Source: Candidatus Krumholzibacteriia bacterium (GTDB lineage: Bacteria > Krumholzibacteriota > Krumholzibacteriia > WVZY01 > JAKEHA01). From it: a stretch of DNA of 64,000 nucleotides. The notes beneath the pieces are model-generated. The model had not been told where the DNA came from. It did no database searches and saw only the letters and a list, made by a program, of their open reading frames with translations. Position numbers and translations under genes: made by a program. Positions within the stretch are counted from its first letter, which is position 1. Every line of letters begins with the position of its first letter. Below, one piece after another: positions 10,124 through 30,480 of this stretch. Where the stretch lies: the NCBI GenBank assembly GCA_029865265.1, contig JAOUHG010000017.1, positions 1 to 64,000 of the forward strand, in the 5' to 3' direction.

Positions 10124-10229
10124 CTCTAGTAACGCGTTTCGGCCGCCGCACGCGGGGGAGCCTGGAAGGCTCCACCCGCGTACGCGACCGAGTAAGAAGA
10201 CCGCTTTCTTATGAAAAGCGTCCGATTGT

Positions 10230-12926
10230 CTACTGGATGCGCACCGTGAACCCCACACCCGCGGTCGAACTGCCGCCCGCGAGGAGATTTCCCGTGAACA
10301 CCCACCGCACGTTGGTCACGTTGGCGTCGTAACCGGCCGGCGCACCACCGCCGCCGCTCGCCGGTGCGTAGGCCCACGTGGCACCGTTGTCGTCGGAGAA
10401 CTCGATGGCGATACCCGTCACCGATGCCGGCGCCGTGCCGGAGGTCTCCGAGCCCACCTGGAACTGCGTCCACGTCGGAACCGCGTCATAGATGATGATC
10501 GACGTGAGCGAGGCACTGCCCAGGTTCTGGTAGTCGACCGTGTAGGTCAGATCGGTACCCGGGGCCTGGTTGCCGGCGGGGCTGACCACCTTGGTGAGGC
10601 TCAGGTTGCCGGCGGTGATGGTGGTAACGTCGGTGGCGCTGTCGAACACCAGCGTCACCTGGCCGGTGGCGGTCAGCACGCCCACCTCCACCGTTCCCAC
10701 CGAAGCGCCCGCGGGCACCGTGAGTCGAACGCTGATGTTGGCACTGGCACCCGGCGCGAGCAGGATGCTCGTGATGGGCGTACTGGTCGCATCGAGGAAC
10801 ACGTAGCCCCAGCCCTGCGAGGAGACGTAGGTCAGGTCGAAGGTATCGCCCGTGTTACCCGTGTTGGTCACGGTGTGCGCGTAGGTGACGGTACCGCCGG
10901 CCGTTGCATTGCCCGCGTTGTCCGGATCGAACAACACCGACGCGAGCGTGTTCACCGTCACCGTGTTGACGATGGTGTCGCTCTGGGTGCCGTTGACCGT
11001 GGACGTGGCTGTGAAGGAGACGTTGTTGAGCCCCGGCGCGGTGGCCGCCGGCACAGTGACGCGCGCGATCAGGTTGATTTCAACACCCGCCGCCACCGGC
11101 CCCGTTGAGGCGACCGGCGTGAGTTCGCCAGCGTCGAGGATGCCGTTGCCGTTGGCGTCGATGTGGTAGGTGACCGTCCAGCCACCCGGCAGGACCGACG
11201 ACAGCGTGAAGTTGTCATTGGAACCGCCGTTGTTGATCACGTCGAGCGCAAAGTTGACCGACGCGCCCGGGTTGGCGTTCAGGTTGCGAGCAACGTTGTT
11301 GGTCGTCCCGGGGGCGCCGTCATAGTTACCGATATCCACGCTGGCCGGCAGCACCGAGGTAATGCTGTCGGTGGTCAAGTTGTCCGCCAGCGGATCATTG
11401 GACGAGCGGGCCAGGATGACTGCGTTGAACGGACCGCCCGCACCCTGCGAGCCCGGAATCACCAGGCGGACGACGATGTCGGCCGTCGCACCGGGGGCCA
11501 GCGAGCCTACGTCCGGGGTTCCGTCGAAGTTGCTGTCCGCGAGCGGCGTAACGCCGTCGGCGCGGTAGAACAACACCGACCACGTACCCGGGATGTTGGA
11601 CGCGCCGTCCAGCAGCACGTTGACCACGTCGGCCGCGTTGCCGTCGTTGCGGATGGTGTTGACGAACGTCACCGACGTATTGGCATACGCGGTGGCGATG
11701 GTCTGCACGTCATCGTCGAAACCGGGACCGGTGCCGGCACCCGGGTTGCCCACAGGACCGATGAGCACCGTCGCCAGCGTACCGACCGTGACCGGCGCGT
11801 TGTTGGAGGTGACGATGGTCGGATCCGGTGTCACCACGCTGTTGTCCACGTAGGCGAGTGCCGCGGTGTTGTTGAGCACACCGGGCGTCATGCCCACCGG
11901 AACCGTCACCTGGTACTGGAACGAGTAGCTCTGCCCCGCCACGATGGCACCGTTGGCGATGTACGCCACCGCGATGTCACCCGCCGCAGGCACGAGGCCC
12001 CACGCCCAGGTCTCGGGGCTTCCCGCCGTCGAGCTGCCGGTGGGCAGGTAGAGGACGGTGCCGCCGGCCGGCGAACCAGTGGGTGTTCCGAAGATCGCCA
12101 GCGGGTTGCCGCTTGCCGGGTTGAGCGGGATGATGTCGTACATGAGAACGCCGGTCAGGGCCACCGAAGCAACCGTGACGCCGTTCGCGCTGTTGGTGCC
12201 GGAGTTGGAACCGGTGAAGGTGTAGGTGATCTGATCACCGTCGTAGACCAGCGCGGGGGCGCCGGCCAGGTTCGCGGTCATCACCGCGTCGTTGACCACG
12301 GTGGTGAGGTGGTAGTTGCGCGTGTCAACCTGACCCGCGTCCGCCACCGAGGTACCCTGCACGCCGACGTAGGCCAGCTGGCCCGCCGTGGCCGTGCCCG
12401 GCACGGTATACGCGACAATGAGGTTCGCCGACGTGCCGGCCGCCATGGGCCCAAACACGCCCGGGACACCGCCTGCGCTGATCGCGGGCTCGCCCGCGTT
12501 GACAACGCCGTTGCCGTTCACGTCGTGATAGATGGTCACGCCCGAGAGCGCGAGTATCATGGTGGTGTTGGCGGCATCGATCAACGGCTGCAGCGTGTAG
12601 CTGTCGTTGTCGTTGCCGGTATTCGAGAGCGTGTAGCTGTAGTACACGGTCTGCCCGCCAATGGCGTTCTGCGCCATGGCCGGCGTCACCGGCGGGGTCT
12701 CGCCGGAGTCGTCGGGCAGGATCGATACGCTGTACACGGGCAGGACGACCGTGATCACTTCATTGGAAAGCGAGGTATACGTGTTGCCGATCAGGTCCTC
12801 GTAGGTGGCAGAGGCGCGGTTGCGGATCTGCGTGCCGGCCGGCGTCGTCTGCGCGAACGCCGAGGCGGCAAACATGGCCACCATAACGAGGGCGAGGACG
12901 GCAAGCGAGAGAATGCGCTTGTTCAT
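10230..12926 (-). CDS. secreted DUF11/CARDB-like β-sandwich repeat protein (898 aa)
   Basis: Strong RBS AGGAGGA upstream of ATG 12926. Signal peptide MNKRILSLAVLALVMVAMFAASAFA-QTTPAGTQIRNRASATYED. Repeated TYTxxVxNxG-type DUF11 motifs and glycine-rich GNPGAGTGPG linkers. The C-terminal VRWVFTGN...GFTVRIQ block is shared with its operon partners. Confidence 0.8.
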   Translation of the reverse strand: MNKRILSLAVLALVMVAMFAASAFAQTTPAGTQIRNRASATYEDLIGNTYTSLSNEVITVVLPVYSVSILPDDSGETPPVTPAMAQNAIGGQTVYYSYTLSNTGNDNDSYTLQPLIDAANTTMILALSGVTIYHDVNGNGVVNAGEPAISAGGVPGVFGPMAAGTSANLIVAYTVPGTATAGQLAYVGVQGTSVADAGQVDTRNYHLTTVVNDAVMTANLAGAPALVYDGDQITYTFTGSNSGTNSANGVTVASVALTGVLMYDIIPLNPASGNPLAIFGTPTGSPAGGTVLYLPTGSSTAGSPETWAWGLVPAAGDIAVAYIANGAIVAGQSYSFQYQVTVPVGMTPGVLNNTAALAYVDNSVVTPDPTIVTSNNAPVTVGTLATVLIGPVGNPGAGTGPGFDDDVQTIATAYANTSVTFVNTIRNDGNAADVVNVLLDGASNIPGTWSVLFYRADGVTPLADSNFDGTPDVGSLAPGATADIVVRLVIPGSQGAGGPFNAVILARSSNDPLADNLTTDSITSVLPASVDIGNYDGAPGTTNNVARNLNANPGASVNFALDVINNGGSNDNFTLSSVLPGGWTVTYHIDANGNGILDAGELTPVASTGPVAAGVEINLIARVTVPAATAPGLNNVSFTATSTVNGTQSDTIVNTVTVNTLASVLFDPDNAGNATAGGTVTYAHTVTNTGNTGDTFDLTYVSSQGWGYVFLDATSTPITSILLAPGASANISVRLTVPAGASVGTVEVGVLTATGQVTLVFDSATDVTTITAGNLSLTKVVSPAGNQAPGTDLTYTVDYQNLGSASLTSIIIYDAVPTWTQFQVGSETSGTAPASVTGIAIEFSDDNGATWAYAPASGGGGAPAGYDANVTNVRWVFTGNLLAGGSSTAGVGFTVRIQ

Positions 12927-12938
12927 TGTTCCGTCCTC

Positions 12939-13424
12939 CTATCGAACGACCGCGCGGTAAGCCAGGGTGACCTGCTCCGCGGGTTCGAGTTCATCGTTGA
13001 GGGTCCAGCGGACGTGCGTCACCATGCTGGCGGGCGCGTCCTTCCACACTTCCTTGCCGTCGACAACCGTGCGGATGCGAACCGGCCAGGCATGAAACGT
13101 CTTGCCGTTGTCCACGCTGAACGTGACCGCGGCGCCACCCGGCTGCGTGGCCGTGCGGACGACGTACTCGGTTCCCGACGGAATCGGGTCGGTGATCGAA
13201 ACCGTGCGAACCGCGGTCTCTCCGCCGTTGGCGTAGGTGAGGCGGTACTCGATGAGATCCCTGGGAGAAGCCTCTCCCGCGGGCACGAACAACTCCTCGC
13301 CGGTCTCCTCGGCGACGAGCACTTTCCAAGCTTCGATATTCCCCGTCAGCGGACCGGAACCGATGGCGGCACCGGCCACGAACAAGACGGCGAAGATCGT
13401 CAGCAACATCACGGCGCGACGCAT
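12939..13424 (-). CDS. small secreted single-domain DUF11/CARDB-like protein (161 aa), first gene of the giant-protein operon
   Basis: GGAGG RBS 9 nt upstream of ATG 13424. Signal peptide MRRAVMLLTIFAVLFVAGAAIG. DUF11-like core LIEYRLTYANGGETAVRTVSITDPIPSGTEYV. Its stop lies 12 nt from the start of the 898-aa gene. The upstream part of the track ORF (to 13637) is probably untranslated. Confidence 0.65.
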   Translation of the reverse strand: MRRAVMLLTIFAVLFVAGAAIGSGPLTGNIEAWKVLVAEETGEELFVPAGEASPRDLIEYRLTYANGGETAVRTVSITDPIPSGTEYVVRTATQPGGAAVTFSVDNGKTFHAWPVRIRTVVDGKEVWKDAPASMVTHVRWTLNDELEPAEQVTLAYRAVVR

Positions 13425-13864
13425 GGGCGCTACCTCCTGGATGGCGCGAATAGACGAAATGCCGGCGTGACCCCCCTGAGGGGTTCCGCTCCGGCAAGCG
13501 CGCGGCAACTGACCGCGCGTCCGCGCCGGTCTCCCCGGCCGCGGTTCACGGTGCAGAGGGCAAGGACCATTCCACAGAAGGGCGCATGGTTCCCCCATGG
13601 GTGGCATGGCGCCCCGGCGGGTATCCCTGCGGATCATGGCAACTTATTGTTTCTAAGTTTGTTACAGGGGAAGCTGGGCGGGAATTACAGGCCGCGGAAG
13701 AGAATCACGCGGAAGCCCAGGGCACCGCGCCGGCACCGGCCGGGAAATGCAAATTGACCGGTCACCGGCGGCGGGCCGGCCAATATGAAGCCAGCGCGCC
13801 TGGCGGGCAGGGGGTGGGACAGAGATTGTTGAAAATTCTACAGCCACTGGACTATATTCCACAC

Positions 13865-14920
13865 ATGACGCGACCCATTCCAGGCTGGAGAATCCTCCTC
13901 ATCGCGGCCATCACCGCGGCGACGGTTTCGTTCCACTACGGGCTCCTCGTGCCCGACTCCCACGGCGGCGTGCTGCACGCCATCCACGGGCGACTGTGCT
14001 ACATCCCCATCATTCTGGCGGCGGTCTGGTACGGCGTGCGCGGCGGGCTCATCACCGCGCTGGCCATCACCCTGCTCACCCTTCCCTACGCGCGTCTGAA
14101 GGGCATCACCGACCACCACACACTGCTGGGCGAGTACACCGAGATGGTGTTCTACGTGGCCATCGGTCTCATGACCGGCGTCCTCATCGAGCGGCAGTGG
14201 CGCGAGCGGCGGCGCAGCGAATCCCTGCAACGCGAACTCGCCAGGCAGGAACGGCTGTCGTCGCTCGGCCAGATGGCAGCGGGACTCGCGCACGAGATCC
14301 GCAATCCGCTTGGTTCCATCCAGGGCGCCGCGGAGATGCTGGGGGACCGCGCGCCGGCCGGCACGCGCGAAGGCGAGTTGTTCGACGTGTTGCGCAAGGA
14401 ATCGCTCCGGCTGGGAGCGGTGGTGAACGACTTCCTCGGCTTTGCCCGGCCGCGCCCGCCGGAACTCGCGCCCGTCGACGTCGCGGCGGCGGTCGAGCGC
14501 GCCGCAGCGCAGATGGAACTGGACGCGTCGGCGCGGGGCGTCAGCATCGCGCGCTCCGTGGAAGCCGATCTCCCCGTGCTGCAGGCGGACGAGGGACAGC
14601 TGCACCAGGTCCTGCTCAATCTGCTGATGAACGCAATCGCCGCCAGCACGGACGGCGGCCGCGTGGAGATTTCCGCCGCGCGCACGCACCGCGACGGCGT
14701 GCCCTGCGTGGCGCTGCGCGTGCACGATACCGGCGCCGGCATTCCCGAGGACGTGCTGCCACGCATCTTCGACCCGTTCTTCACCACGCGTGAGAGCGGA
14801 ACCGGGCTGGGGCTGTCGATCTCGCACGGCATCATCCGTGAGCACGGCGGCTGGATCGACGCGAGGAGCCGCCCCTTCGGGGGCACCACGATTTCCGTCA
14901 TTCTGCCGGCGGGGGAATAA
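13865..14920 (+). CDS. membrane sensor histidine kinase (HisKA + HATPase_c) with a small polytopic N-terminal membrane domain
   Basis: H-box LAHEIRNPLGSIQGAAEML, G-boxes DTGAGIPEDVLPRIFDPFFTT and GTGLGLSISHGII. Hydrophobic N-terminus MTRPIPGWRILLIAAITAATV... Divergent from the DUF11 operon. Its stop is 4 nt from the response-regulator start. Confidence 0.85.
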   Translation: MTRPIPGWRILLIAAITAATVSFHYGLLVPDSHGGVLHAIHGRLCYIPIILAAVWYGVRGGLITALAITLLTLPYARLKGITDHHTLLGEYTEMVFYVAIGLMTGVLIERQWRERRRSESLQRELARQERLSSLGQMAAGLAHEIRNPLGSIQGAAEMLGDRAPAGTREGELFDVLRKESLRLGAVVNDFLGFARPRPPELAPVDVAAAVERAAAQMELDASARGVSIARSVEADLPVLQADEGQLHQVLLNLLMNAIAASTDGGRVEISAARTHRDGVPCVALRVHDTGAGIPEDVLPRIFDPFFTTRESGTGLGLSISHGIIREHGGWIDARSRPFGGTTISVILPAGE

Positions 14921-14924
14921 CGCC

Positions 14925-16277
<1,353 letters not shown>

Positions 16278-16393
16278 GCCCGCGGTGCCAGGGTGGCACA
16301 GCACCGGGACTTCGTGCTAACCTGTCGAGCCCGCGCGTGCCGTCACGCGCGACGCAACCACCAACGTCCCCCGCATTGCAAAGGAGTGAACAG

Positions 16394-19324
16394 TTGCGAC
16401 GCGTCGTCCTGTTTTGCCTCGCGGCGATCGCCGCTGTGAGCGCGGTGCCCGCCGCGGCGGCGGACTACTTTCAGCAGTTCGTCCACTATACCATCCGGGT
16501 TCAGCTCGACACGGAGCGCAAGTGGATTTCCGGCTCGGAGACGATTGTCTATGCGAACAACTCGCCGGACACGCTGCGCGAGTTCTACCTCCACCTCTAT
16601 CCCAACGCGTTTCGCGACAAGAACGTCCCCTACCAGAAGGACGAGAATCGCAAGTACAACCTGACCCTGCGCGACGTCCCCGGGGACCACAAGGGATGGC
16701 TGGACCTGCGCGGGGTGCGCGTGGGTGCGGACTCGGTGACGGTGACGGTGGAGGGGACCCTCGCGCACATGGACCTCCCCCGCCCCCTCGCGCCCGGCGA
16801 CTCGATGACCATTTCCTTCGATTTCGACGGCAAGGTGCGCAAGGGCGCGGACCGCTCCGGCTACAAGGGGGATCACTACGACTTCGCCCAGTGGTACCCC
16901 AAGGTGGTCGTGTACGATGAAAAGGGGTTCCACCCCGACCAGTTCATGACCGGCGAGTTCTACGGGGAGTTCGGCACCTTCGACGTGCACATCGAACTGC
17001 CGTCGCATTTCGTCGTGGTCGCAACCGGAACCGTGCAGAGCGGCGACCCGGGCTGGGACTACAACCCGCCGCACGAGAAGAACGCGCCCCGGCGCAAAGC
17101 GGACGGCGGCAGCAAGACCGTGCATTTCCACGCCCAGAGGGTGCACGACTTCGCCTGGTGCGCCGATCCCAGCTACGTCGTGCAGGACACCACGCTCGAC
17201 GGCATCGAAATCCGCAGCGCCTACCGGCGCTCCAGCGCGAAGACCTGGGAGGATTCCACCCTGGCGCACGCGGTGCGCGCCATCAAGTGGTACGGCAGCA
17301 AGGTGGGCAGGTACCCCTACCCGCAGATCACGGTGGCGGAGATGCTGCGCGGCGGCGGCATGGAGTACCCGATGTTCGTCATGGACGGCCGCGCCAGCGA
17401 GGGTCTGGTGATGCACGAGATCGGCCACGTGTACTTCTACGGAATCCTCGCCAACGACGAGCGGGAGGAGGCGTGGCTGGACGAGGGCTTCGCGACCTTC
17501 ATGACCGCGTGGTACAACACCGAGACCCACGGACCCTGGGGTGATACCAGCGAGTGGAACTTCTACCAGCGCATCACGCCCCAGTACAACATCTGGGAGA
17601 AGTACCGGCGCAACGTGTTCGACCTGGAGCGCCGCCACTACGGCGAGCGCGTCTCGTTCCGCGCCGAGGACTACATCCACTCATACCGCGCCAACGTGTA
17701 CGACAAGGCCGCGCTCACCCTCAACACCATCAAGTTCGTGGCCGGGGACGAGAAGTTCGTGCAGATCCTGCACGATTACTTCGACAAATGGCAGTTCAAG
17801 CACGTCAACGAGGATCGTTTCCGCGAGGTGTGCGAGAACGTGACGCAGTGGGACCTGTCGCGCCAGTTCGAGCAGTGGCTGCACACCACCAAGACGGTCG
17901 ACTACCAGCTGGAAAAGGTGGGCTCGCGGCCGGATTCGAGCGGCGTCGTCACCGAGGTCCTGGTGCGCCGCCTCGGCGAACTCTACTGCCCCATCCAGGT
18001 GGACTACACGCTCCCCGACGGCAGCGTGCGCTCGGAGCGTCTCGACGCGCGCGACCGCACCATGCGCAGCCGCATGAAGCTTCCCGCCGAGCCCGTGCGC
18101 GTCGAGATCAACCCGAACAACGAGATCATGGACCGCAACCTGTCGGACAACGTGCTGCCGCGGCGCAAGGACCTGCAGTTCGACTGGCCCAACAACGACT
18201 ACTATCCCGAGGACGCCTATCAGATCCGGCACCGCCCCGCCATCTGGTACAACGACGTCGACGGCGCCAAGGTGGGCTATCACTTCTCGGGCAGCATGCA
18301 CGGCTGGTCACGCCGCCTGCAGCTGGGCCTGTACTACGGCGCCATGTCGGACCGCCTCGACTTCTCGGCGTCGTTCGAGCAGCCCAAGTACTGGTTCAAG
18401 AGCAACTCGACCTTCCGGGTGGCGGGCTACAAGATGGAAGGCCGCCAGCAGGCCACCGTGGACTTCCGTTTCAACAGGCGCGCCAAACTGCTGGAGCCAC
18501 CCACCCAGGAGTTCCTCATCGGGTACGGCTACCACGAGTTGCGCGCACCGCGCTACCTCGTGAGCCCCGAGATCTACGACACGTTGCAGGCCGACACCGG
18601 GCCGTACTTCGGCTACTCGGTGGACCCGCAGCTCGACGTGGCCGCCACACGCCTCGAAGGCGGGCTGCGGCTGGGACGCAGCTGGTTCGGCGGCGACTAC
18701 AAGTACGAACGCCTCGAACTGGCGCTCACCACGCACTCGCGCCCGCAAGTGACGGGCGGCGTGGACACGCGCCTGCGTCTGTTCGCCGGCTTCGGGGGCG
18801 GCGGCATGCCCACCCAGAGAAGGTTCAACCTGGCGGGCGCGGGTCCGGTGGCGCAGGGAGAGAAGTTCTGGCTGCGTTCGCCGGGCGCGGTACCGCCGGA
18901 CCTGAACTACCTGGAACCGGGGGATGGAAACCTGCGCGGTTACTTCGATGGAACCTTCGGTGTCAACAAGCTGGTGGCGTTCAACGGCGAACTCGGCACG
19001 CGCGTGAAACTGTTCGGTCTTGAGAAGAAGGCGGCAAAGCTGGTGGGAACGTTGTCGTGGTACGGTTTCTACGACGCGGGCTGGATTCTCGACACCAGCA
19101 ACCCGATTTCATCGAGCGGGCGCGTGCAGTCCCTGGTGGACGGCGGCGTGCTGGATGCAACGCTGCAGGACGCGGGGGTGGGCATCCGCTCACACGTGGC
19201 GTGGCCGTTCTGGGATTTCACCTGGCGCCTCGACGTGCCCTTCTGGGTGAGCAACCCCGAGGTCAACGCCGAAACGGACACGGTCGACTTCCGCTACCTG
19301 TTCAGCCTGACTGCAACTTTCTAG
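16394..19324 (+). CDS. M1-family zinc aminopeptidase domain fused to a C-terminal Omp85/surface-antigen-type β-barrel (type Vd autotransporter-like architecture)
   Basis: AAAGGAGTG RBS then TTG 16394 giving the signal peptide MRRVVLFCLAAIAAVSAVPAAAADY (track ORF starts at 16337). M1 N-domain, GAMEN-like GGMEYP, HEIGH-x18-WLDEGFA gluzincin motif. The C-terminal ~400 aa carries RRFNLAGAG...NLRGYFDG (Omp85 RFxLGG / L6 VRGY-type motif) and ends ...FRYLFSLTATF with a terminal aromatic β-signal. Confidence 0.8.
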   Translation: MRRVVLFCLAAIAAVSAVPAAAADYFQQFVHYTIRVQLDTERKWISGSETIVYANNSPDTLREFYLHLYPNAFRDKNVPYQKDENRKYNLTLRDVPGDHKGWLDLRGVRVGADSVTVTVEGTLAHMDLPRPLAPGDSMTISFDFDGKVRKGADRSGYKGDHYDFAQWYPKVVVYDEKGFHPDQFMTGEFYGEFGTFDVHIELPSHFVVVATGTVQSGDPGWDYNPPHEKNAPRRKADGGSKTVHFHAQRVHDFAWCADPSYVVQDTTLDGIEIRSAYRRSSAKTWEDSTLAHAVRAIKWYGSKVGRYPYPQITVAEMLRGGGMEYPMFVMDGRASEGLVMHEIGHVYFYGILANDEREEAWLDEGFATFMTAWYNTETHGPWGDTSEWNFYQRITPQYNIWEKYRRNVFDLERRHYGERVSFRAEDYIHSYRANVYDKAALTLNTIKFVAGDEKFVQILHDYFDKWQFKHVNEDRFREVCENVTQWDLSRQFEQWLHTTKTVDYQLEKVGSRPDSSGVVTEVLVRRLGELYCPIQVDYTLPDGSVRSERLDARDRTMRSRMKLPAEPVRVEINPNNEIMDRNLSDNVLPRRKDLQFDWPNNDYYPEDAYQIRHRPAIWYNDVDGAKVGYHFSGSMHGWSRRLQLGLYYGAMSDRLDFSASFEQPKYWFKSNSTFRVAGYKMEGRQQATVDFRFNRRAKLLEPPTQEFLIGYGYHELRAPRYLVSPEIYDTLQADTGPYFGYSVDPQLDVAATRLEGGLRLGRSWFGGDYKYERLELALTTHSRPQVTGGVDTRLRLFAGFGGGGMPTQRRFNLAGAGPVAQGEKFWLRSPGAVPPDLNYLEPGDGNLRGYFDGTFGVNKLVAFNGELGTRVKLFGLEKKAAKLVGTLSWYGFYDAGWILDTSNPISSSGRVQSLVDGGVLDATLQDAGVGIRSHVAWPFWDFTWRLDVPFWVSNPEVNAETDTVDFRYLFSLTATF

Positions 19325-21778: not shown

Positions 21779-23316
21779 GGCGCTGCCCGCAGGTCGCGGC
21801 CACTCATGGCCGCCGGGACCGGAACACCCAGATAGTCCAGAATGGTGGGCGCGATATCGCGCAACGATCCGTCGGAGATGAGCGCGCCGCGGTAGGACGG
21901 ATCCACCAGGATGCAGGGAACGGGGTTGGTGGTGTGCGCGGTATGCGGGCCACCGGTCTTCGGATCCAGCATCAGTTCCGCGTTACCGTGATCGGCGATG
22001 ACGATGGCCACGTAACGCTTCAGATCCAGCTCGCCCATCACCCGCCCCACGCACGCATCCACCGTCTCGCACGCCGTGATCGCCGCGGACAGCACGCCGG
22101 TGTGCCCCACCATGTCGGGGTTGGCGAAGTTGCACACCAGGTAGTCGTGCCGGTCGGCCCGCAGTTCGGCGATGAGCGCATCGCACACCTCGTTGGCGCT
22201 CATCTCCGGTTGAAGGTCGTAGGTGGCAACCTTCGCCGATGGAATCAGAATCCGGGTTTCCCCGCCGAACTCGTGCTCCTCGCCCCCGTTGAAAAAGTAG
22301 GTCACGTGCGCATACTTCTCCGTTTCGGCGATGCGCAACGTCTTCATTCCGGCGGCGGCAGCGGTATCGGCGAGGATGTCGGTGCGGGACTCGGGCGGAA
22401 AAGCCACCGGGAGGTCGAAACCATCCTCGTAGTAGCGCGCCATGCACACGTATCCAACCTTCGGCTTCTTATCGCGCTGGAAGCCGTCGAAGGATTCATC
22501 GGTGAAGGCGTGCGTGATCTGCCGCGCGCGGTCGGCGCGAAAATTGAAAAACACCAGCACGTCCCCGTCGGCCACCACACCCGGCGTCCCGCCGGGGGGC
22601 ACGATGGCCACCGGCTCCACGAACTCGTCGGTGACACCCGCGGCGTAGGAGCGCTTCACCGCATCAACCGCGTCGGTCGCCCGCTCCCCCTTGCCCAGCG
22701 TGTACAGGTCGTACGCCTTGCGTGTCCGCTCCCAACGCTTGTCACGGTCCATCGCGTAGTAGCGTCCGATGATCGTCGCGATGCGCGCGTTGCCGAGCGC
22801 GGCGGTCTTCTCCTCCAGGAGTTTGAGATAACCCTCGCCGCCATGGGGCGAGGTGTCGCGGCCATCGAGAATGGCATGCACCATGACATTGCCCACGCCC
22901 CGCTCCTTCGCCATGTCGAGCAGCGCGTCCAGGTGTCGCTGGTGGCTATGCACGCCCCCGTCGGAAACGAGTCCCACCAAGTGCAACGTGCCACCCTGGC
23001 GAAGCGCGTCCATCGCCTCGCGCAGCGCCGGTATCTTCTGGAATGACCCGTCCGCAATCGACCGATCGATGCGCACGATGTCCTGGTACACGATCCGCCC
23101 GGCGCCGATGTTGAGGTGGCCGACCTCGCTGTTTCCCATCTGCCCCTCGGGCAGCCCCACCCAGGGACCCGACGCCTCGATGAGCGTGTGCGAATACTTC
23201 TCCCACAACGCGTCCACGTTGGGGGTGTTCGCCAGCCGCACAGCGTTGTTCTCGCTTTGTTCGCGCCAACCCCACCCGTCCAGGATCAGGAGCAGTACCT
23301 TCCTGCGCACCGTCAT
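21775..23316 (-). CDS. gpmI: 2,3-bisphosphoglycerate-independent phosphoglycerate mutase
   Basis: MTVRRKVLLLILDGWGWR...GNSEVGHLNIGAGRIVYQD...ADHGNAE matches the iPGM family end to end. ATG 23316 overlaps the upstream stop (ATGA). The track ORF 21775..24336 is extended by antisense overlap. Confidence 0.9.
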   Translation of the reverse strand: MTVRRKVLLLILDGWGWREQSENNAVRLANTPNVDALWEKYSHTLIEASGPWVGLPEGQMGNSEVGHLNIGAGRIVYQDIVRIDRSIADGSFQKIPALREAMDALRQGGTLHLVGLVSDGGVHSHQRHLDALLDMAKERGVGNVMVHAILDGRDTSPHGGEGYLKLLEEKTAALGNARIATIIGRYYAMDRDKRWERTRKAYDLYTLGKGERATDAVDAVKRSYAAGVTDEFVEPVAIVPPGGTPGVVADGDVLVFFNFRADRARQITHAFTDESFDGFQRDKKPKVGYVCMARYYEDGFDLPVAFPPESRTDILADTAAAAGMKTLRIAETEKYAHVTYFFNGGEEHEFGGETRILIPSAKVATYDLQPEMSANEVCDALIAELRADRHDYLVCNFANPDMVGHTGVLSAAITACETVDACVGRVMGELDLKRYVAIVIADHGNAELMLDPKTGGPHTAHTTNPVPCILVDPSYRGALISDGSLRDIAPTILDYLGVPVPAAMSGRDLRAAP

Positions 23317-26620: not shown

Positions 26621-27484
26621 ATGAAGATTGCGATCTTCGGTGTCAGCGGTCAGCTCGGCCGTGACGTCGCCGGCGCGCTTTCCGCACACCAGGTGGAAGG
26701 CGTCGACCACGCGCGCGCCGACATCCGCGACGAAGACAACGTGCGCCGCGTGGTGGAAGCGCTGCGGCCCGACTGGGCCATCAACTGCGCGGCCATGACC
26801 CACGTGGACGGCTGCGAACGCGACCCGCTGGCGGCGTTCGAAAACAACGCCCTCGGCGCCCGCGTCCTCGCGCGCGCGTGCGCGGCGAACAACGCGCGCC
26901 TGCTGCAGATCAGCACCGACTACGTGTTCGACGGCTGCAAGGGCAGCGCGTACGTGGAGACCGACCTGCCCCGCCCCCTCAACGCCTACGGGATATCCAA
27001 GCTTGCCGGGGAACACTTTGCGCGTTACGAGTGCCCCCGGACGGTGGTGGTGCGGACCAGCGGGCTCTACGGCGTCCACGTGTGCCGCGGCAAGGGGAGC
27101 AATTTCGTGGAGACGATGCTGGCGCGGGCGGGCGGCGAAGACGCGATGCGTGTGGTGGCGGACGAACGCCTCACCCCCACCTACACCGCCGATCTCGCGG
27201 CACAGATTCGCGGCATGATCGAGGCCGCCGTGGCGCCCGGCGTCTACCACGCCACCAACGCGGGCGACTGCTCGTGGCACGAGTTCACCGTCGAACTGTT
27301 GCGGCTTGCCGGCGTCACCGCGCAGGTCCAGCCGATCCGCGCCGCGGACTGGAAATCGCCCGCCCGGCGGCCGGCCAACTCCGTCCTCGAGAATCGCGCG
27401 TTGCAGGCGCTGGATCTGGACGTCATGCCCGAATGGCGGGACGCCCTGTCGCGCTACGTGACCGTGCGCGCGACCGCGGCATGA
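26621..27484 (+). CDS. rfbD: dTDP-4-dehydrorhamnose reductase
   Basis: MKIAIFGVSGQLGRDV...STDYVFDG...YHATNAG matches the RmlD family over the full length. Confidence 0.85.
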   Translation: MKIAIFGVSGQLGRDVAGALSAHQVEGVDHARADIRDEDNVRRVVEALRPDWAINCAAMTHVDGCERDPLAAFENNALGARVLARACAANNARLLQISTDYVFDGCKGSAYVETDLPRPLNAYGISKLAGEHFARYECPRTVVVRTSGLYGVHVCRGKGSNFVETMLARAGGEDAMRVVADERLTPTYTADLAAQIRGMIEAAVAPGVYHATNAGDCSWHEFTVELLRLAGVTAQVQPIRAADWKSPARRPANSVLENRALQALDLDVMPEWRDALSRYVTVRATAA

Positions 27485-27485
27485 C

Positions 27486-27737
27486 TCAGAACAAGAGATG
27501 CAGGAGCATCGCGGCGAAGCCGACCGACAATCCGACGGCCACGAACCCGATCAGCACGGCCACGCCGACGGCAATGGCCGGCACGACCAGTACGGCGGCA
27601 AATACACCCTTGAGCAACGCGAAACCGAGCTTCAGCGGAAGCAGCACGATGGCCAGAACGGCATGGAGCACAAACGCCCCCAGCAGGATCGAACCCACCA
27701 GGAGACCCATGAGAATGAATGCCGAGAATTCGATCAT
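27486..27737 (-). CDS. very hydrophobic small membrane protein (83 aa, 2-3 predicted TM helices), hypothetical
   Basis: ATG-initiated ORF exactly filling the rfbD-to-peptidase gap. Sequence MIEFSAFILMGLLVGSILLGAFVLHAVLAIVLLPLKLGF... Its start codon overlaps the divergent peptidase ATG (cATGa). The competing plus-strand frame encodes a low-complexity T/A/N/P-rich stretch. Confidence 0.45.
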   Translation of the reverse strand: MIEFSAFILMGLLVGSILLGAFVLHAVLAIVLLPLKLGFALLKGVFAAVLVVPAIAVGVAVLIGFVAVGLSVGFAAMLLHLLF

Positions 27738-30480
27738 GACCTCCCTCCCGGGCCGGCGTGACCGGCGCCGTTACGGACCGCTCTACACCGGCACGGCCCG
27801 CGCATTCAATGAGGGCCCGGCGCGGCTCCGGGCGGCGCTGCCGCGCGCGGCGGCGGCGGTGGCGGGCATGTTGACGGCGGCGGCGGCCGTTGCGGCCATG
27901 GCGGGCGGCAAGCCGGCCTCGCTCGCGCCCGATCCGCTCCAGTACGTGTCCCCCAGCCGCGCCTTCCGCACCCTGCACACGGCGCTCGATCTCGATATCG
28001 ACCTGGAAGGACAGCGCATCGCCGGCAGCGTCACCCACACCCTCCAGTCTCTTAGACCGCTCGTGGCGGAGATTGGTTTCAACTGTGTCGAACTTACCGT
28101 GGATTCGGTCACCGTGGACGGCCACCGCGCCGCGTTCGACTATCCGGTCTCGGCGGGCCAGAACACCTCGTGGATCAGCGGCGCGGCGGAGGCGGTGGCG
28201 GACGACCAGCTCGTGGTGAAGCTGCCGCAGGCCCTCGCCCGCGGCGAGGAGGCGCAGGTGCGCGTGTACTACCGGGGCGCCCCCAAAATCGGCCTGTACT
28301 GGATCCCCACCGAGAAGGGCATCCCCGAGAAGCGCTGGGAGGTGTGGTCGCAGGGCGAGGGCGAGGACAACCGCTACTGGATCCCGTGCTTCGACTACCC
28401 CAACGACCGCGCCACCTTCGAGGGGCGCTTCCGGGTGCCACACGGATACACCGCCATCTCCAACGGCGCCCTGGTCGAGAAGAAAGACGTGGGAGACAAG
28501 ACCGAGTTCTACTGGAAGCTCGAGCAGTCGCAGGTGAGCTACCTCATCATGCTCGCGGTGGCGAAGTACCGCGTGTACGAACAGAAGTGGAACGACGTGG
28601 ACGTGTGGTACGTGGTTCCGCCCGACGCGGACGACGCCACCATCCTGCGCGGCTACGGCCTCACCGGCGACATGATGGAGTACTTCTCGAAGGAGATCGG
28701 CATCGACTACCCGTACACCAAGTACGCGCAGGTGGTGGTGCAGAACTTCATCTACGGCGGCATGGAGAACACCACCGCCACCACCATGAACATGCGCACG
28801 CTGTACGACGAGCGCGAAGGCCTCACGCGCACCGAGCGCTCCCTGGTGGCGCACGAGCTCGCCCACCAGTGGTACGGCGACCTGCTCACCTGCCGCGAGT
28901 GGAGCCAGATGTGGCTCAACGAGGGCTTCGCCACCTACTACGCCTATCTCTACGAGGAACACCACGCCGGCGATGACGCCTTCCGCTACAAGATGCTGGA
29001 GGCGCAGCGCAAGGTGGTGGTGAGCGACGACGCCGACCCGCGGCCCATGGTGGTGGACTTCTACAACCGCCGCGACGCGCGCAACAACACCAACGTCTAC
29101 AACCGCGGCGCCAGTGTGCTGCACATGCTGCGCTTCCTCTTGGGCGACGAGATGTACCGCGCCACCATCCACGAATACACCCGGCGTCACGCCCACTCGG
29201 TGGTGGAGACGCAGGACCTCATGCGGGCGGTGCGCGACGTGACTGGCGAGAACCTCGACTGGTTCTTCGAGCAGTGGGTGTTCCTGGCCGGCTACCCGAA
29301 GTTCCGCGTCAGCAAGGACTGGGACCGCGAAACCGGTGTCCTGCACATGCGCGTGGAGCAGACCCAGGTGGCGGAGGGACTGGTGCCGGTGTTCCGCGTG
29401 CCGCTGGACGTGGAGATTGCGTGGGAGGGCGGCACGCGCACGCAGCGCATCGTGGCGGAACGAGCGTCGCAGGACTACTACTTCTCCGTCCCCGCCGAAC
29501 CGAAGATGGTGGTCTTCGACAAGGGCGGGTGGATTCCCAAGACGCTGGACTTCCCACGCCGGTTGGAAGAGCTGCTGTACACGCTCGAGCAAGGCGACTT
29601 TGCCGCGCGCGTGGATGCGGCACTGGCTCTGGGCAGCATGGGCGCCGACGCGCGCACCGCCCCGGTATTGCGCGCGGTGCTGCAATCCGACCAGTACTGG
29701 GGCCTGCGCCGCGAAGCAGCGCTGGCGCTGGGCGCGGCGGGAACGCCGGCTGCGCGCGACGTGCTCGTCGAAGGCCTCGGGCTGGATGACGCGCGGGTAA
29801 GGCTGGCCTGCGCCGAGGCGCTGGGCGGTTTCCACCGCGACGCGGTGGCCGCGGCCGCGCTGGAAAAGGCCATCAACAACGACCGCGCGTACGGCGTACG
29901 CGTGCAGGCCGTCAGCAGCCTCGTGAAGACGGGCGACGACCGCGCGTCAATGGTGTGTGTTGCGGCACTCAAGCAGGAGTCGGACCGCAGCTCCGTGCGC
30001 GCCGTCGCCATCGAGGGACTGGCCGCGCTCAAGGACCCCGCGGCGATGGACCGCGTTCGTCCGTACTGCACGCCGGGCAACCGGCGCGACCAGCGCCACC
30101 CGGCCATCAAGGCGTACGCATCCCTCGCCCGCGAGCTGACGAAGGAATCCGACCGGCGGCGCGCGGCCGAGTTCCTCGCGCCGTTCCTGGACGACTGGTA
30201 CCTGCGCACCCGCGAGGCGGTGATCGACGCCTTGATCACCATTGGCGATCCGGGCTCGGTGGGCACCCTGGAGCGGGTGGCGACCGGCGATCCGCTTGCC
30301 GCCGTGCGCGACCGGGCCCGCAAAGGCGCCGAGCGCATCCGGGCCGAACACGCCACCCGTTCCGGTAAGACCACCACCGCCGCGGAGCTCGAGGAGTTGA
30401 AGCGCCGCGTGGCCACCCTGGAGGACGACCTGCGCGAGGCCCGCAAGGCCCTGGCGGGAAGCGACGGCCCGGACGAGTGA
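27736..30480 (+). CDS. M1-family zinc aminopeptidase with C-terminal HEAT/PBS-lyase-type repeats
   Basis: GGMENTTATT (GAMEN) and HELAHQWYGD...WLNEGFATY (HEXXH-x18-E) motifs. The C-terminal ~300 aa are α-helical repeats (ALALGSMGADARTAPVLRAVL...). The start is uncertain: ATG 27736 (MTSLPGRRDRRR... with a long signal-like leader), or ATG 27481 overlapping the rfbD stop, or an internal ATG/GTG near 27850. Confidence 0.8.
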   Translation: MTSLPGRRDRRRYGPLYTGTARAFNEGPARLRAALPRAAAAVAGMLTAAAAVAAMAGGKPASLAPDPLQYVSPSRAFRTLHTALDLDIDLEGQRIAGSVTHTLQSLRPLVAEIGFNCVELTVDSVTVDGHRAAFDYPVSAGQNTSWISGAAEAVADDQLVVKLPQALARGEEAQVRVYYRGAPKIGLYWIPTEKGIPEKRWEVWSQGEGEDNRYWIPCFDYPNDRATFEGRFRVPHGYTAISNGALVEKKDVGDKTEFYWKLEQSQVSYLIMLAVAKYRVYEQKWNDVDVWYVVPPDADDATILRGYGLTGDMMEYFSKEIGIDYPYTKYAQVVVQNFIYGGMENTTATTMNMRTLYDEREGLTRTERSLVAHELAHQWYGDLLTCREWSQMWLNEGFATYYAYLYEEHHAGDDAFRYKMLEAQRKVVVSDDADPRPMVVDFYNRRDARNNTNVYNRGASVLHMLRFLLGDEMYRATIHEYTRRHAHSVVETQDLMRAVRDVTGENLDWFFEQWVFLAGYPKFRVSKDWDRETGVLHMRVEQTQVAEGLVPVFRVPLDVEIAWEGGTRTQRIVAERASQDYYFSVPAEPKMVVFDKGGWIPKTLDFPRRLEELLYTLEQGDFAARVDAALALGSMGADARTAPVLRAVLQSDQYWGLRREAALALGAAGTPAARDVLVEGLGLDDARVRLACAEALGGFHRDAVAAAALEKAINNDRAYGVRVQAVSSLVKTGDDRASMVCVAALKQESDRSSVRAVAIEGLAALKDPAAMDRVRPYCTPGNRRDQRHPAIKAYASLARELTKESDRRRAAEFLAPFLDDWYLRTREAVIDALITIGDPGSVGTLERVATGDPLAAVRDRARKGAERIRAEHATRSGKTTTAAELEELKRRVATLEDDLREARKALAGSDGPDE

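What the first reader, a model, noticed from the sequence alone, without database searches (positions are those of the whole stretch)
16394..19324. M1 zinc aminopeptidase fused to a C-terminal Omp85-type β-barrel: a type Vd-like autotransporter with a peptidase passenger
The N-terminal ~520 aa are a complete M1 gluzincin: β-sandwich N-domain, GGMEYP exopeptidase motif, HEIGH-x18-E. The C-terminal ~400 aa carry the Omp85 hallmarks RRFNLAGAG (RFxLGG) and NLRGYFDG (L6 VRGY/F motif) and end in an aromatic β-signal ...FSLTATF. Described type Vd systems (PlpD, FplA) carry patatin passengers. An M1 peptidase passenger would be a new cargo class for Omp85-fused secretion and would display an aminopeptidase on the cell surface. 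A σ70-less TTG start with a strong RBS gives a clean Sec signal.
Basis: partly seen in the sequence, partly recalled or inferred. Interest (0 to 1): 0.8.

Follow-up and report, generated by a model that had tools for sequence, protein, structure and literature searches.

The report
M1 aminopeptidase fused to POTRA-less Omp85 barrel
One gene encodes a complete zinc aminopeptidase joined to a BamA-like outer-membrane barrel; the fusion is real, conserved across many FCB-type phyla and apparently undescribed, but it lacks the POTRA domain of type Vd autotransporters and nothing shows the enzyme reaches the cell surface.

Summary

It is not an assembly artefact. Full-length homologues occur in MAGs labelled as about ten phyla, mostly FCB-group (Krumholzibacteriota to Gemmatimonadota, Marinimicrobia and Bacteroidota).

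The "type Vd-like autotransporter" reading is only partly supported:
- There is no POTRA. The segment between enzyme and barrel is the M1 family's own beta-sandwich "domain III" plus a short, highly conserved linker.
- In effect the barrel replaces the helical domain IV of ordinary M1 enzymes.
- The barrel belongs to a narrow Omp85 subfamily that also exists as stand-alone (noNterm-type) barrels.
- Gene neighbours in distant lineages are envelope folding and proteolysis genes (DsbD, TlpA-like redoxin, PPIase, DegP, M16).

My best reading is an outer-membrane-anchored aminopeptidase facing the periplasm (about 0.55). Surface display is the main rival (about 0.3). Topology could not be settled with these tools. 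I rate it a new variant of a known kind, of moderate to high interest.

The parts
16381..16386 (+). Ribosome-binding site AAGGAG, 7 nt upstream of the TTG start
   Evidence: Read directly. No sigma-70-like promoter and no sigma-54-like promoter was found in the 116-nt upstream spacer.
16394..19324 (+). Whole gene: 976 codons plus a TAG stop
   Evidence: Single open frame. Length and ends match more than 100 full-length homologues.
16394..16462 (+). Type-I Sec signal peptide (aa 1-23; inferred cleavage AAA|D)
   Evidence: Sequence. Predicted helix 2-22. The same layout, followed by YFQQ/YWQQ, is seen in 184 relatives, none with a lipobox.
16463..17227 (+). M1 N-terminal beta-sandwich domain (aa 24-278)
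   Evidence: AF2 secondary structure. Foldseek alignment to ERAP/IRAP.
17228..17881 (+). M1 thermolysin-like catalytic domain (aa 279-496). Contains GGMEY (17354-17368), HEIGH...E364 (17414-17485) and catalytic Tyr436 (17699-17701).
   Evidence: Pfam PF01433 E=4.9e-15. Motif positions and invariance. PDB profile hits to M1 enzymes.
17903..18109 (+). All-beta domain (aa 504-572), equivalent to M1 'domain III'; not a POTRA
   Evidence: Six strands and no helix. BLASTP to the conventional M1 paralogue in this window runs through aa 570, matching the segment before that protein's HEAT repeats. Foldseek aligns ~600 columns with four-domain M1 enzymes.
18110..18217 (+). Short, highly conserved linker (aa 573-608; N576, I578, D580 and N586 invariant, D597, P599, Y603 and P605 at 90% or more; consensus 'DWPNNxYYPEDAYQIR')
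   Evidence: Conservation. Residues 575-587 co-vary with domain III, e.g. 505-585. Strand 592-596 is kept in the barrel-only model. The segment is absent from stand-alone barrels of the same subfamily.
18218..19321 (+). 16-stranded Omp85-type beta-barrel (aa 609-976)
18803..18967 (+). Loop 6 (aa 804-858) between strands 11 and 12, carrying the invariant LRGY (aa 847-850, nt 18932-18943)
   Evidence: Motif definition (L/M)RG(W/Y) from PMC11358297.
19067..19081 (+). FYDAG (aa 892-896), the FxDxG lid-lock partner on strand 13
   Evidence: F892 and D894 invariant, G896 in 41 of 42. Strand assignment. Motif definition from PMC11358297.
19301..19321 (+). C-terminal beta-signal FSLTATF (terminal aromatic residue)
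   Evidence: Terminal F in 39 of 42, aromatic in 41 of 42.

Best explanation
The gene encodes an outer-membrane-anchored M1 zinc aminopeptidase.

Steps shown here:
- The gene makes one polypeptide with a Sec signal.
- It carries a catalytically complete M1 module: N-domain, catalytic domain and beta-sandwich domain III.
- A 36-residue conserved linker follows.
- The C-terminus is a POTRA-less, 16-stranded Omp85-family barrel with an intact loop-6/strand-13 lid-lock and a terminal aromatic beta-signal.
- The barrel occupies the position where ordinary M1 enzymes have their helical domain IV.

Steps inferred:
- After Sec export, the barrel is inserted into the outer membrane by the host's BAM machinery.
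- Strand 1 of every structurally characterised Omp85 barrel begins at the periplasmic face, and the linker is short and packed against domain III. The peptidase therefore most likely stays rigidly mounted under the periplasmic mouth of the barrel.
- There it removes N-terminal residues from oligopeptides. These could be imported peptides or products of envelope endoproteases such as DegP and M16 enzymes, which are its neighbours in other lineages.
- The barrel probably derives from a stand-alone (noNterm-type) Omp85. It serves mainly as the membrane anchor and as a structural substitute for domain IV.
For: - Architecture and active site.
- Omp85 identity of the barrel.
- No POTRA, and domain III identity of aa 504-572.
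- Conservation of the whole fusion at 27-95% identity, in MAGs labelled Krumholzibacteriota, Latescibacterota, KSB1, Marinimicrobia, Gemmatimonadota, Calditrichota, Zixibacteria, Eisenbacteria and Bacteroidota.
- Narrow barrel subfamily (669 of 1.84e9 representatives) that includes genuine stand-alone barrels with their own signal peptides.
- Periplasmic lean, point 1: linker residues 575-587 co-vary with domain III, leaving only about 20 residues before strand 1.
- Periplasmic lean, point 2: strand 592-596 persists in the barrel-only model. There the only unpaired bridge residues outside loops 6 and 8 (extracellular by standard Omp85 topology) are 698 and 701, in periplasmic turn T3.
- Periplasmic lean, point 3: the best linker-barrel couplings cluster on periplasmic turn T5 and the periplasmic ends of strands 1, 2 and 10.
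- Gene context, Marinimicrobia/KSB1-type loci (19 of 80): the gene lies directly downstream of a TlpA-like redoxin and DsbD, near a cyclophilin-FKBP PPIase, and is often followed by DegP/HtrA.
- Gene context, about eight Krumholzibacteria-type loci: an M16 peptidase lies just upstream.
Against: - The orientation of the peptidase was not observed.
- The coevolution test was statistically null: in the top 30 pairs, 10 were periplasmic against 8.2 expected. Its precision was low, with 3 of the top 10 barrel pairs consistent with hairpin register.
- A lipid anchor would be a cheaper way to tether a periplasmic enzyme. Strict conservation of the functional Omp85 hallmarks (LRGY, FxDxG, short strand 16) fits a barrel that does more than anchor.
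- Type Vd systems and FhaC's helix H1 are precedents for N-terminal segments that cross Omp85-type pores.
- The gene-neighbour evidence comes from distant lineages. The window's own neighbours are uninformative (two-component system, DegT aminotransferase) and are syntenic only in close relatives.
Confidence: 0.55

Rival explanations
1. Type V-like self-export. The Omp85 barrel, alone or as a hybrid with BamA during assembly, translocates the N-terminal M1 module to the cell surface. The module stays attached through the linker threaded through the pore and scavenges amino acids from external peptides. This would be a POTRA-less relative of type Vd.
For: - An N-terminal enzyme fused to a 16-strand Omp85 barrel is the general layout of PlpD and FplA.
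- The barrel keeps every hallmark of working Omp85 proteins.
- A type Va autotransporter with an aminopeptidase passenger exists: AaaA, used for nitrogen acquisition from peptides.
- The family is widespread in MAGs of several environmental phyla, including marine Flavobacteriales and Marinimicrobia. From general knowledge, these are protein-degrading heterotrophs, for which surface peptide trimming would be useful.
Against: - No POTRA.
- The linker is short, conserved and packed on domain III, leaving about 20 residues to cross a lumen already occupied by loop 6.
- The passenger would be a 550-residue, three-domain zinc enzyme with no repetitive fold to drive vectorial folding.
- The closest barrel relatives are stand-alone barrels, not patatin fusions.
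- Neighbours in other lineages are periplasmic folding and proteolysis factors.
Confidence: 0.3
2. Envelope quality-control machine. The barrel is an active Omp85 that engages unfolded or stalled outer-membrane proteins at its lateral seam. The attached M1 module degrades or processes them. This would make it a fused analogue of a BAM-associated protease such as E. coli BepA (that comparison is from general knowledge).
For: - Lid-lock motifs are retained and strand 16 is short (six residues), as in insertase-type Omp85s.
- DsbD, TlpA-like, PPIase and DegP neighbours occur in 19 of 80 loci.
- Heinz and Lithgow proposed periplasmic quality control for their enzyme-Omp85 'Metallo' subfamily.
- The family is deeply and broadly conserved across phyla, as expected of housekeeping envelope functions.
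Against: - M1 enzymes are exopeptidases that need a free N-terminus and usually act on short peptides, which makes them poor at clearing whole misfolded proteins.
- No partner such as TamB or Bam lipoproteins is conserved next to the gene.
- The narrow barrel subfamily is far from BamA/TamA in sequence, with no PDB sequence hit even using a profile.
Confidence: 0.12
3. Artefact: two separate genes (a peptidase and an Omp85) joined by a frameshift, sequencing error or chimeric assembly.
For: In one marine Flavobacteriales cluster the locus is annotated as two pieces, 'aminopeptidase N, partial' (778 aa) and 'membrane protein' (329 aa). Split versions therefore exist, or are miscalled, in some assemblies.
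Against: - The frame is uninterrupted here.
- Independent assemblies from many phyla give the same full-length protein with collinear domains.
- The junction region is among the most conserved parts of the protein.
- AF2 models the whole chain as one compact body (pTM 0.88).
Confidence: 0.01

Closest known systems
Type Vd autotransporters (PlpD of Pseudomonas aeruginosa, FplA of Fusobacterium nucleatum)
   Same: One polypeptide with a Sec signal, an N-terminal enzyme and a C-terminal 16-stranded Omp85/TpsB-like barrel.
   Different: Type Vd has a single POTRA between passenger and barrel, and all known passengers are patatin-like lipases. Here there is no POTRA, the enzyme is an M1 metallopeptidase joined by its own domain III plus a short rigid linker, and secretion is unproven.
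Non-POTRA Omp85 subfamilies of Heinz & Lithgow 2014 ('Metallo' PF00149-Omp85, WD40-Omp85, noNterm) and the noNterm Omp85s of Leptospira
   Same: - Omp85 barrel without POTRA.
- An enzyme domain fused N-terminally ('Metallo').
- Stand-alone barrels as likely ancestors.
- Lid-lock motifs retained.
- Function and topology unknown.
   Different: The N-terminal module here is Peptidase_M1 (PF01433), which is not among the ten described subfamilies. The stand-alone relatives tested (P0189, P0207) matched no Pfam family at E<=0.001, so no match to a DUF5982-type model appeared, if Pfam holds one. This would in effect be an eleventh architecture.
Conventional M1 aminopeptidases (PepN, ERAP1/2, IRAP; the two-domain M1 of PDB 6a8z, deposited as 'Zinc metalloprotease, putative'; the paralogue at window 26878-30480)
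   Same: N-domain, thermolysin-like catalytic domain with HExxH-x18-E, the Glu of GxMEN, a catalytic Tyr, and the beta-sandwich domain III.
   Different: The helical (HEAT/ARM-like) domain IV that caps the active site is replaced by a membrane barrel. The exopeptidase motif reads GGMEY rather than GxMEN. Sequence identity to the paralogue is only 24%.
AaaA of P. aeruginosa (type Va autotransporter with aminopeptidase passenger)
   Same: An aminopeptidase physically coupled to an outer-membrane barrel in one polypeptide, with a role in nitrogen acquisition from peptides.
   Different: The barrel is a 12-stranded classical autotransporter barrel, not Omp85. From general knowledge, the AaaA passenger belongs to peptidase family M28, not M1.
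BamA / TamA / Sam50
   Different: No POTRA domains. Only 13-16% identity. A family profile finds no PDB Omp85 by sequence.

Membership tests
Peptidase family M1 (gluzincin aminopeptidases) | Zinc-binding HExxH-x18-E | tested here: met
   H341-E-I-G-H345 ... E364. H341, E342 and H345 are invariant; E364 is present in 41 of 42.
Peptidase family M1 (gluzincin aminopeptidases) | Exopeptidase motif GxMEN (its Glu binds the substrate amino group) | tested here: inconclusive
   GGMEY at 321-325. G322 and E324 are invariant and M323 is in 41 of 42, but Asn is replaced by a conserved Tyr (41 of 42). The key Glu is present. The effect of N to Y is unknown.
Peptidase family M1 (gluzincin aminopeptidases) | Catalytic Tyr, and a profile score above the curated threshold | tested here: met
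   Y436 is invariant in 'VYxK'. PF01433 scores 56.2 bits against a cut-off of 27.7. All 42 members hit it.
Peptidase family M1 (gluzincin aminopeptidases) | M1 fold (N-domain + thermolysin-like domain, with or without domain III) | tested here: met
   Foldseek to IRAP/ERAP1/ERAP2: E 4.5e-24 to 1e-21, probability 1.00, ~600 aligned columns.
Peptidase family M1 (gluzincin aminopeptidases) | Aminopeptidase activity | not testable with these tools
   Needs an enzyme assay.
Omp85/TpsB superfamily | 16-stranded C-terminal beta-barrel structurally matching BamA/TamA/FhaC | tested here: met
Omp85/TpsB superfamily | Loop-6 (L/M/V)RG(Y/F/W) motif and FxDxG on strand 13 (lid-lock) | tested here: met
   L847 R848 G849 Y850 lies in the loop between strands 11 and 12, with RGY invariant. 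F892-x-D894-x-G896 lies on strand 13. Motif definition from PMC11358297.
Omp85/TpsB superfamily | Pfam Omp85 (PF01103) score above the gathering threshold | tested here: not met
   For this protein the score is 12.3 bits (E=0.12) against 24, and only when the C-terminus is scanned alone. Homologues do hit the model: 18 of the 120 top clusters by precomputed hits, and a best E of 2e-12. The family is therefore a divergent member.
Omp85/TpsB superfamily | Periplasmic POTRA domain(s) N-terminal to the barrel (present in BamA, TamA, TpsB and PlpD; absent in the noNterm, WD40 and 'Metallo' subfamilies) | tested here: not met
   No POTRA family scores at E<=10. Residues 497-608 contain no alpha-helix apart from a 3-residue turn. 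Residues 504-570 align to M1 domain III.
Type Vd autotransporter | Single POTRA linking passenger and barrel | tested here: not met
   Same evidence as the POTRA row for the Omp85/TpsB superfamily. Definition from PMC6555100.
Type Vd autotransporter | Patatin-like lipase passenger | tested here: not met
   The passenger-position module is Peptidase_M1. The patatin genes seen are separate neighbours in some distant loci.
Type Vd autotransporter | Passenger translocated to the cell surface and/or released | not testable with these tools
   Indirect sequence evidence is inconclusive, with a slight periplasmic lean.
noNterm-type / enzyme-fused non-POTRA Omp85 (Heinz & Lithgow scheme) | Omp85 barrel with no POTRA, and barrel sequence related to stand-alone barrels | tested here: met
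   The barrel profile retrieves stand-alone barrels with their own signal peptides (P0189, P0207, P0228, P0242, P0244, P0251, P0255, P0258; E 1e-21 to 1e-29). They begin at the same 'PDxWYNxxDG' strand 1.
Type Va (classical) autotransporter | 12-stranded barrel with an alpha-helical linker in the pore | tested here: not met
   The barrel has 16 strands and the linker contains no helix.

The most novel reading that the evidence does not exclude
The barrel is not a passive anchor. In one version, a POTRA-less Omp85 exports its own N-terminal M1 enzyme, giving a new type V subclass whose cargo is a surface aminopeptidase. In the other version, the barrel, sitting where M1 domain IV normally caps the active site, acts as a conduit that feeds peptides from outside directly into a peptidase docked at its periplasmic mouth.

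Either version would identify a widespread outer-membrane peptide-processing device in uncultivated lineages, including marine Flavobacteriales and Marinimicrobia. It would also give a molecular candidate for cell-associated aminopeptidase activity measured in environmental samples.
Probability: 0.3. Interest if true: 0.8.

Novelty: new variant of a known kind. Interest (0 to 1): 0.6.

Why it matters
- Omp85 proteins are the core machines of outer-membrane biogenesis and type V secretion. Their known N-terminal partners are POTRA domains, plus a few poorly understood exceptions. This family adds a well-defined, catalytically intact enzyme fused directly to the barrel.
- The fusion is conserved across about ten phylum-level labels, which argues for a selected function rather than a curiosity.
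- It bears on two open questions. One is what POTRA-less Omp85 barrels do. The other is whether an Omp85 barrel can handle a large globular N-terminal domain without a POTRA.
- If the enzyme is surface-exposed, the cargo range of type V secretion widens, and abundant marine and soil heterotrophs gain a defined cell-surface aminopeptidase.
- If it is periplasmic, it shows a way of building an outer-membrane-tethered periplasmic enzyme in which a membrane barrel replaces a soluble regulatory domain.
- Public databases currently label these proteins only 'M1 family metallopeptidase', so the membrane half goes unnoticed.

Tried and rejected
1. Single-sequence Pfam and NCBIfam scans for Omp85/POTRA gave only M1 and a sub-threshold Omp85 hit.
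2. A family profile of the barrel against all PDB sequences gave no Omp85 hit, only chance PP2A matches at E>=0.5. Fold comparison was needed instead.
3. Foldseek of the full-length model against PDB was swamped by M1 enzymes, so a barrel-only model was made.
4. The AFDB50 fold library, wanted for comparing the barrel with PlpD-type and noNterm barrels, was not available.
5. The window's own neighbours were tested as functional partners. They are conserved only in close relatives, so this is plain synteny.
6. No sigma-70-like or sigma-54-like promoter lies upstream. This is despite a TGGCAC at 16294-16299 and a sigma-54-dependent response regulator gene immediately upstream. There is no intrinsic terminator downstream.
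7. Mean-field DCA on 247 homologues (Neff 201), meant to decide the topology, gave too weak a signal. There was no significant enrichment for either barrel face.
8. Comparing loops and turns between stand-alone and fused barrels showed differences on both faces, so it was not diagnostic.
9. N-termini were checked for lipoboxes or extended signal regions. None were found.
10. A search for a cultivated host found only MAG-derived sequences among the listed relatives.
11. Literature searches for any M1-Omp85 description found nothing.
12. Two ~400-aa 'stand-alone' hits (P0172, P0182) turned out to be fragments of fusions and were discarded.


Full report

Yes.
- One search lists a single open frame at 16337..19324 on the + strand.
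- The TTG at 16394 lies 7 nt downstream of AAGGAG and gives 976 aa.
- More than 100 homologue clusters of 965-990 aa align from residue 1 to residue 976, which fixes both ends.
- The N-terminus (LRRVVLFCLAAIAAVSAVPAAAA|DYFQQ) is an ordinary type-I Sec signal. The same arrangement, a signal peptide followed at once by YFQQ/YWQQ, is seen in 184 full-length relatives, and none has a convincing lipobox.
- The stop codon is TAG at 19322-19324.

**2. The peptidase half**
- Pfam Peptidase_M1 scores E=4.9e-15. A family profile hits M1 structures in the PDB, the best being the 474-residue chain 6a8z, deposited as 'Zinc metalloprotease, putative'.
- The full-length AF2 model built on 42 sequences is very confident (mean pLDDT 91.3, pTM 0.88). 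It matches IRAP, ERAP1 and ERAP2 with Foldseek E~1e-23 over ~600 columns.
- Catalytic residues are in place and conserved: GGMEY 321-325, H341-E-x-x-H345, E364 and Y436. The one departure from the textbook motif is Tyr in place of the Asn of GxMEN.

**3. The barrel half**
- This protein alone does not pass Pfam's Omp85 threshold (E=0.12, 12.3 bits against 24).
- Homology is nevertheless clear at the family level. 18 of the 120 best clusters carry a precomputed PF01103 hit. In my 42-sequence alignment, which deliberately included many of those, 18 members hit it with a best E of 2e-12.
- AF2 predicts 16 strands (609-974). A 55-residue loop between strands 11 and 12 holds the invariant LRGY, and an invariant F-x-D-x-G lies on strand 13. 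This is the Omp85 'lid-lock' as defined in PMC11358297.
- In sequence the barrel is remote. A profile finds no PDB Omp85.

**4. What lies between the two halves**

- Type Vd autotransporters are defined by passenger + one POTRA + 16-strand barrel, and every known passenger is a lipase (PMC6555100).
- Here residues 504-572 form six beta-strands with no helix. A POTRA is beta-alpha-alpha-beta-beta. No POTRA model scores even at E<=10.
- BLASTP against a conventional M1 paralogue in the same window (26878..30480; M1_N + M1 + HEAT repeats) aligns residues 297-570 with its residues 600-878. That runs through the beta-sandwich lying just before the paralogue's HEAT domain.
- So 504-572 is M1 'domain III', and the Omp85 barrel stands where ordinary M1 enzymes have helical domain IV.
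- A 36-residue linker (573-608) follows. It is among the most conserved stretches of the protein.

**5. Distribution**

The fusion is not an assembly accident.
- They also occur in Calditrichota, Zixibacteria, Eisenbacteria and Bacteroidota (Flavobacteriales, Chitinophagales).
- The window itself is closest to Krumholzibacteria MAGs.
- Sources name these proteins only 'M1 family metallopeptidase', 'aminopeptidase N' or 'hypothetical protein'.

**6. Relatives of the barrel**
- A barrel profile searched against 1.84 billion representatives finds only 669 proteins at E<=1e-3, so this is a narrow Omp85 subfamily.
- Most hits are M1 fusions or fragments of them.
- At least eight are genuine stand-alone barrels of ~395-435 aa. 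Each has its own signal peptide and starts at the same 'PDxWYNxxDG' strand 1.
- This places the family beside the 'noNterm' and enzyme-fused non-POTRA subfamilies of Heinz & Lithgow. Their ten architectures do not include an M1 fusion (PMC4104836).
- No paper describing the architecture was found.

**7. Genomic context**
- In the window, the gene follows a histidine kinase and a sigma-54-dependent response regulator on the same strand. It converges on a DegT-family aminotransferase. These neighbours are shared only with close relatives. No sigma-54 or sigma-70 promoter was detectable upstream.
- Across distant loci, two recurrent neighbourhoods appear.
  - In 19 of 80 loci (Marinimicrobia/KSB1-type) the gene lies 0-30 nt downstream of a TlpA-like redoxin preceded by DsbD. 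A cyclophilin-FKBP isomerase and a patatin lie upstream, and DegP/HtrA often follows directly.
  - In about eight Krumholzibacteria-type loci an M16 peptidase lies just upstream.
- All of these are envelope protein-folding or proteolysis functions.

**8. Which side of the membrane?**

This could not be settled.

Indirect points:
- (a) In all solved Omp85 proteins, strand 1 starts at the periplasmic face. The loop-length pattern here fits the standard topology: short L1-L3 and long L4, L6, L7 and L8.
- (b) Coevolution links linker residues 575-587 to domain III (505-585 is the second-strongest pair; also 527-585, 511-581 and 571-587). Only about 20 residues therefore remain before strand 1.
- (c) Strand 592-596 survives in the barrel-only model. 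There the only free bridge residues outside loops 6 and 8 are 698 and 701, in periplasmic turn T3.
- (d) The best linker-barrel couplings cluster at periplasmic turn T5 and the periplasmic ends of strands 1, 2 and 10. The formal enrichment test is null, however, and DCA precision is low.

Together with the neighbours, this leans towards a periplasmic enzyme mounted under the barrel. It is not proof.

**9. Verdict**
- 'Type Vd-like autotransporter' is partly supported. The fusion to an Omp85 barrel is real, but the defining POTRA is absent and export is untested.
- Best explanation: an outer-membrane-anchored, periplasm-facing M1 aminopeptidase whose barrel derives from a noNterm-type Omp85 and replaces domain IV (0.55).
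- Rivals: POTRA-less self-export to the surface (0.3), an Omp85-based quality-control device (0.12), and artefact (0.01).
- Novelty: a new variant of a known kind, in effect an eleventh Omp85 architecture.
- Interest: 0.6. The family is broad, the question it raises is sharp and directly testable, and the annotation in public databases misses the membrane half.

Noticed in passing
window 26878-30480 (+): A second, conventional M1 peptidase paralogue: Peptidase_M1_N + Peptidase_M1 + HEAT repeats, in an ORF of 1200 aa whose first ~365 aa may be an over-extended start. It is only 24% identical to the fusion over the catalytic domain and domain III. It was useful as an internal control showing that the barrel replaces the HEAT domain.
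   Followed up: partly
window 19321-19324: The stop codon of the fusion gene (TAG, 19322-19324) and the stop of the convergent DegT-family aminotransferase gene (19321-19323 on the - strand) overlap within the palindrome CTAG. There is no intergenic space and no terminator-like hairpin between the two genes.
   Followed up: partly
window 13586-16277 (+) and spacer 16278-16393: A histidine kinase and an NtrC-type sigma-54-dependent response regulator lie immediately upstream on the same strand. The spacer contains TGGCAC (16294-16299), which resembles a -24 element, but no TTGC at the -12 position. No match to TGGCAC-N5-TTGC within 2 mismatches falls in the spacer. This adjacency is kept only in relatives of 64% identity or more.
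   Followed up: partly
window 4355-13637 (-): A run of large ORFs for putative cell-envelope proteins. One is 1967 aa with DUF11 and OmpA-family domains, followed by DUF11/DUF7507 ORFs of 898 aa and 232 aa. The 898-aa and 232-aa ORFs are syntenic in relatives L003-L008.
   Followed up: no
window 23313-25574 (-): An ORF combining Band_7/SPFH, a type I phosphodiesterase/sulfatase-like domain and multiple TPR repeats. It lies next to the iPGM gene and a family-2 glycosyltransferase. The ORF boundaries in this GC-rich stretch overlap other ORFs and were not resolved.
   Followed up: no
protein clusters of P0365, marine Flavobacteriales/Bacteroidia MAGs: The orthologous locus is repeatedly annotated as two adjacent proteins, 'aminopeptidase N, partial' (778 aa) and 'membrane protein' (329 aa, seen on 14 contigs). 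Other members of the same 90% cluster are intact at 1060 aa. This could be a recurrent frameshift or assembly error, or a genuinely split gene.
   Followed up: no
protein P0190: A 727-aa fusion fragment in which the HExxH zinc motif appears to be lost (…LNLMGLMITQQ… where relatives have …HEVGHNY…) while the barrel hallmarks are kept. It may be a catalytically dead member, which would imply a role for the barrel independent of peptidase activity. No Pfam M1 hit was found.
   Followed up: no
loci L032-L076 (e.g. L050 5260-5985, L066 3304-5292, L052 7725-9224): A conserved envelope gene cluster surrounds the fusion gene in Marinimicrobia/KSB1-type genomes. The order is OMP decarboxylase, phosphoribosyltransferase, cyclophilin-FKBP PPIase, patatin, DsbD, TlpA-like redoxin, M1-Omp85, DegP. 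The redoxin gene often overlaps the start of the fusion gene by a few bases, which suggests co-transcription.
   Followed up: partly
protein P0181: One 941-aa relative carries a precomputed PF03865 (ShlB/FhaC/HecB, TpsB-type barrel) hit together with PF01433. This shows that profile assignment of this divergent barrel wavers between the Omp85 and TpsB models.
   Followed up: no
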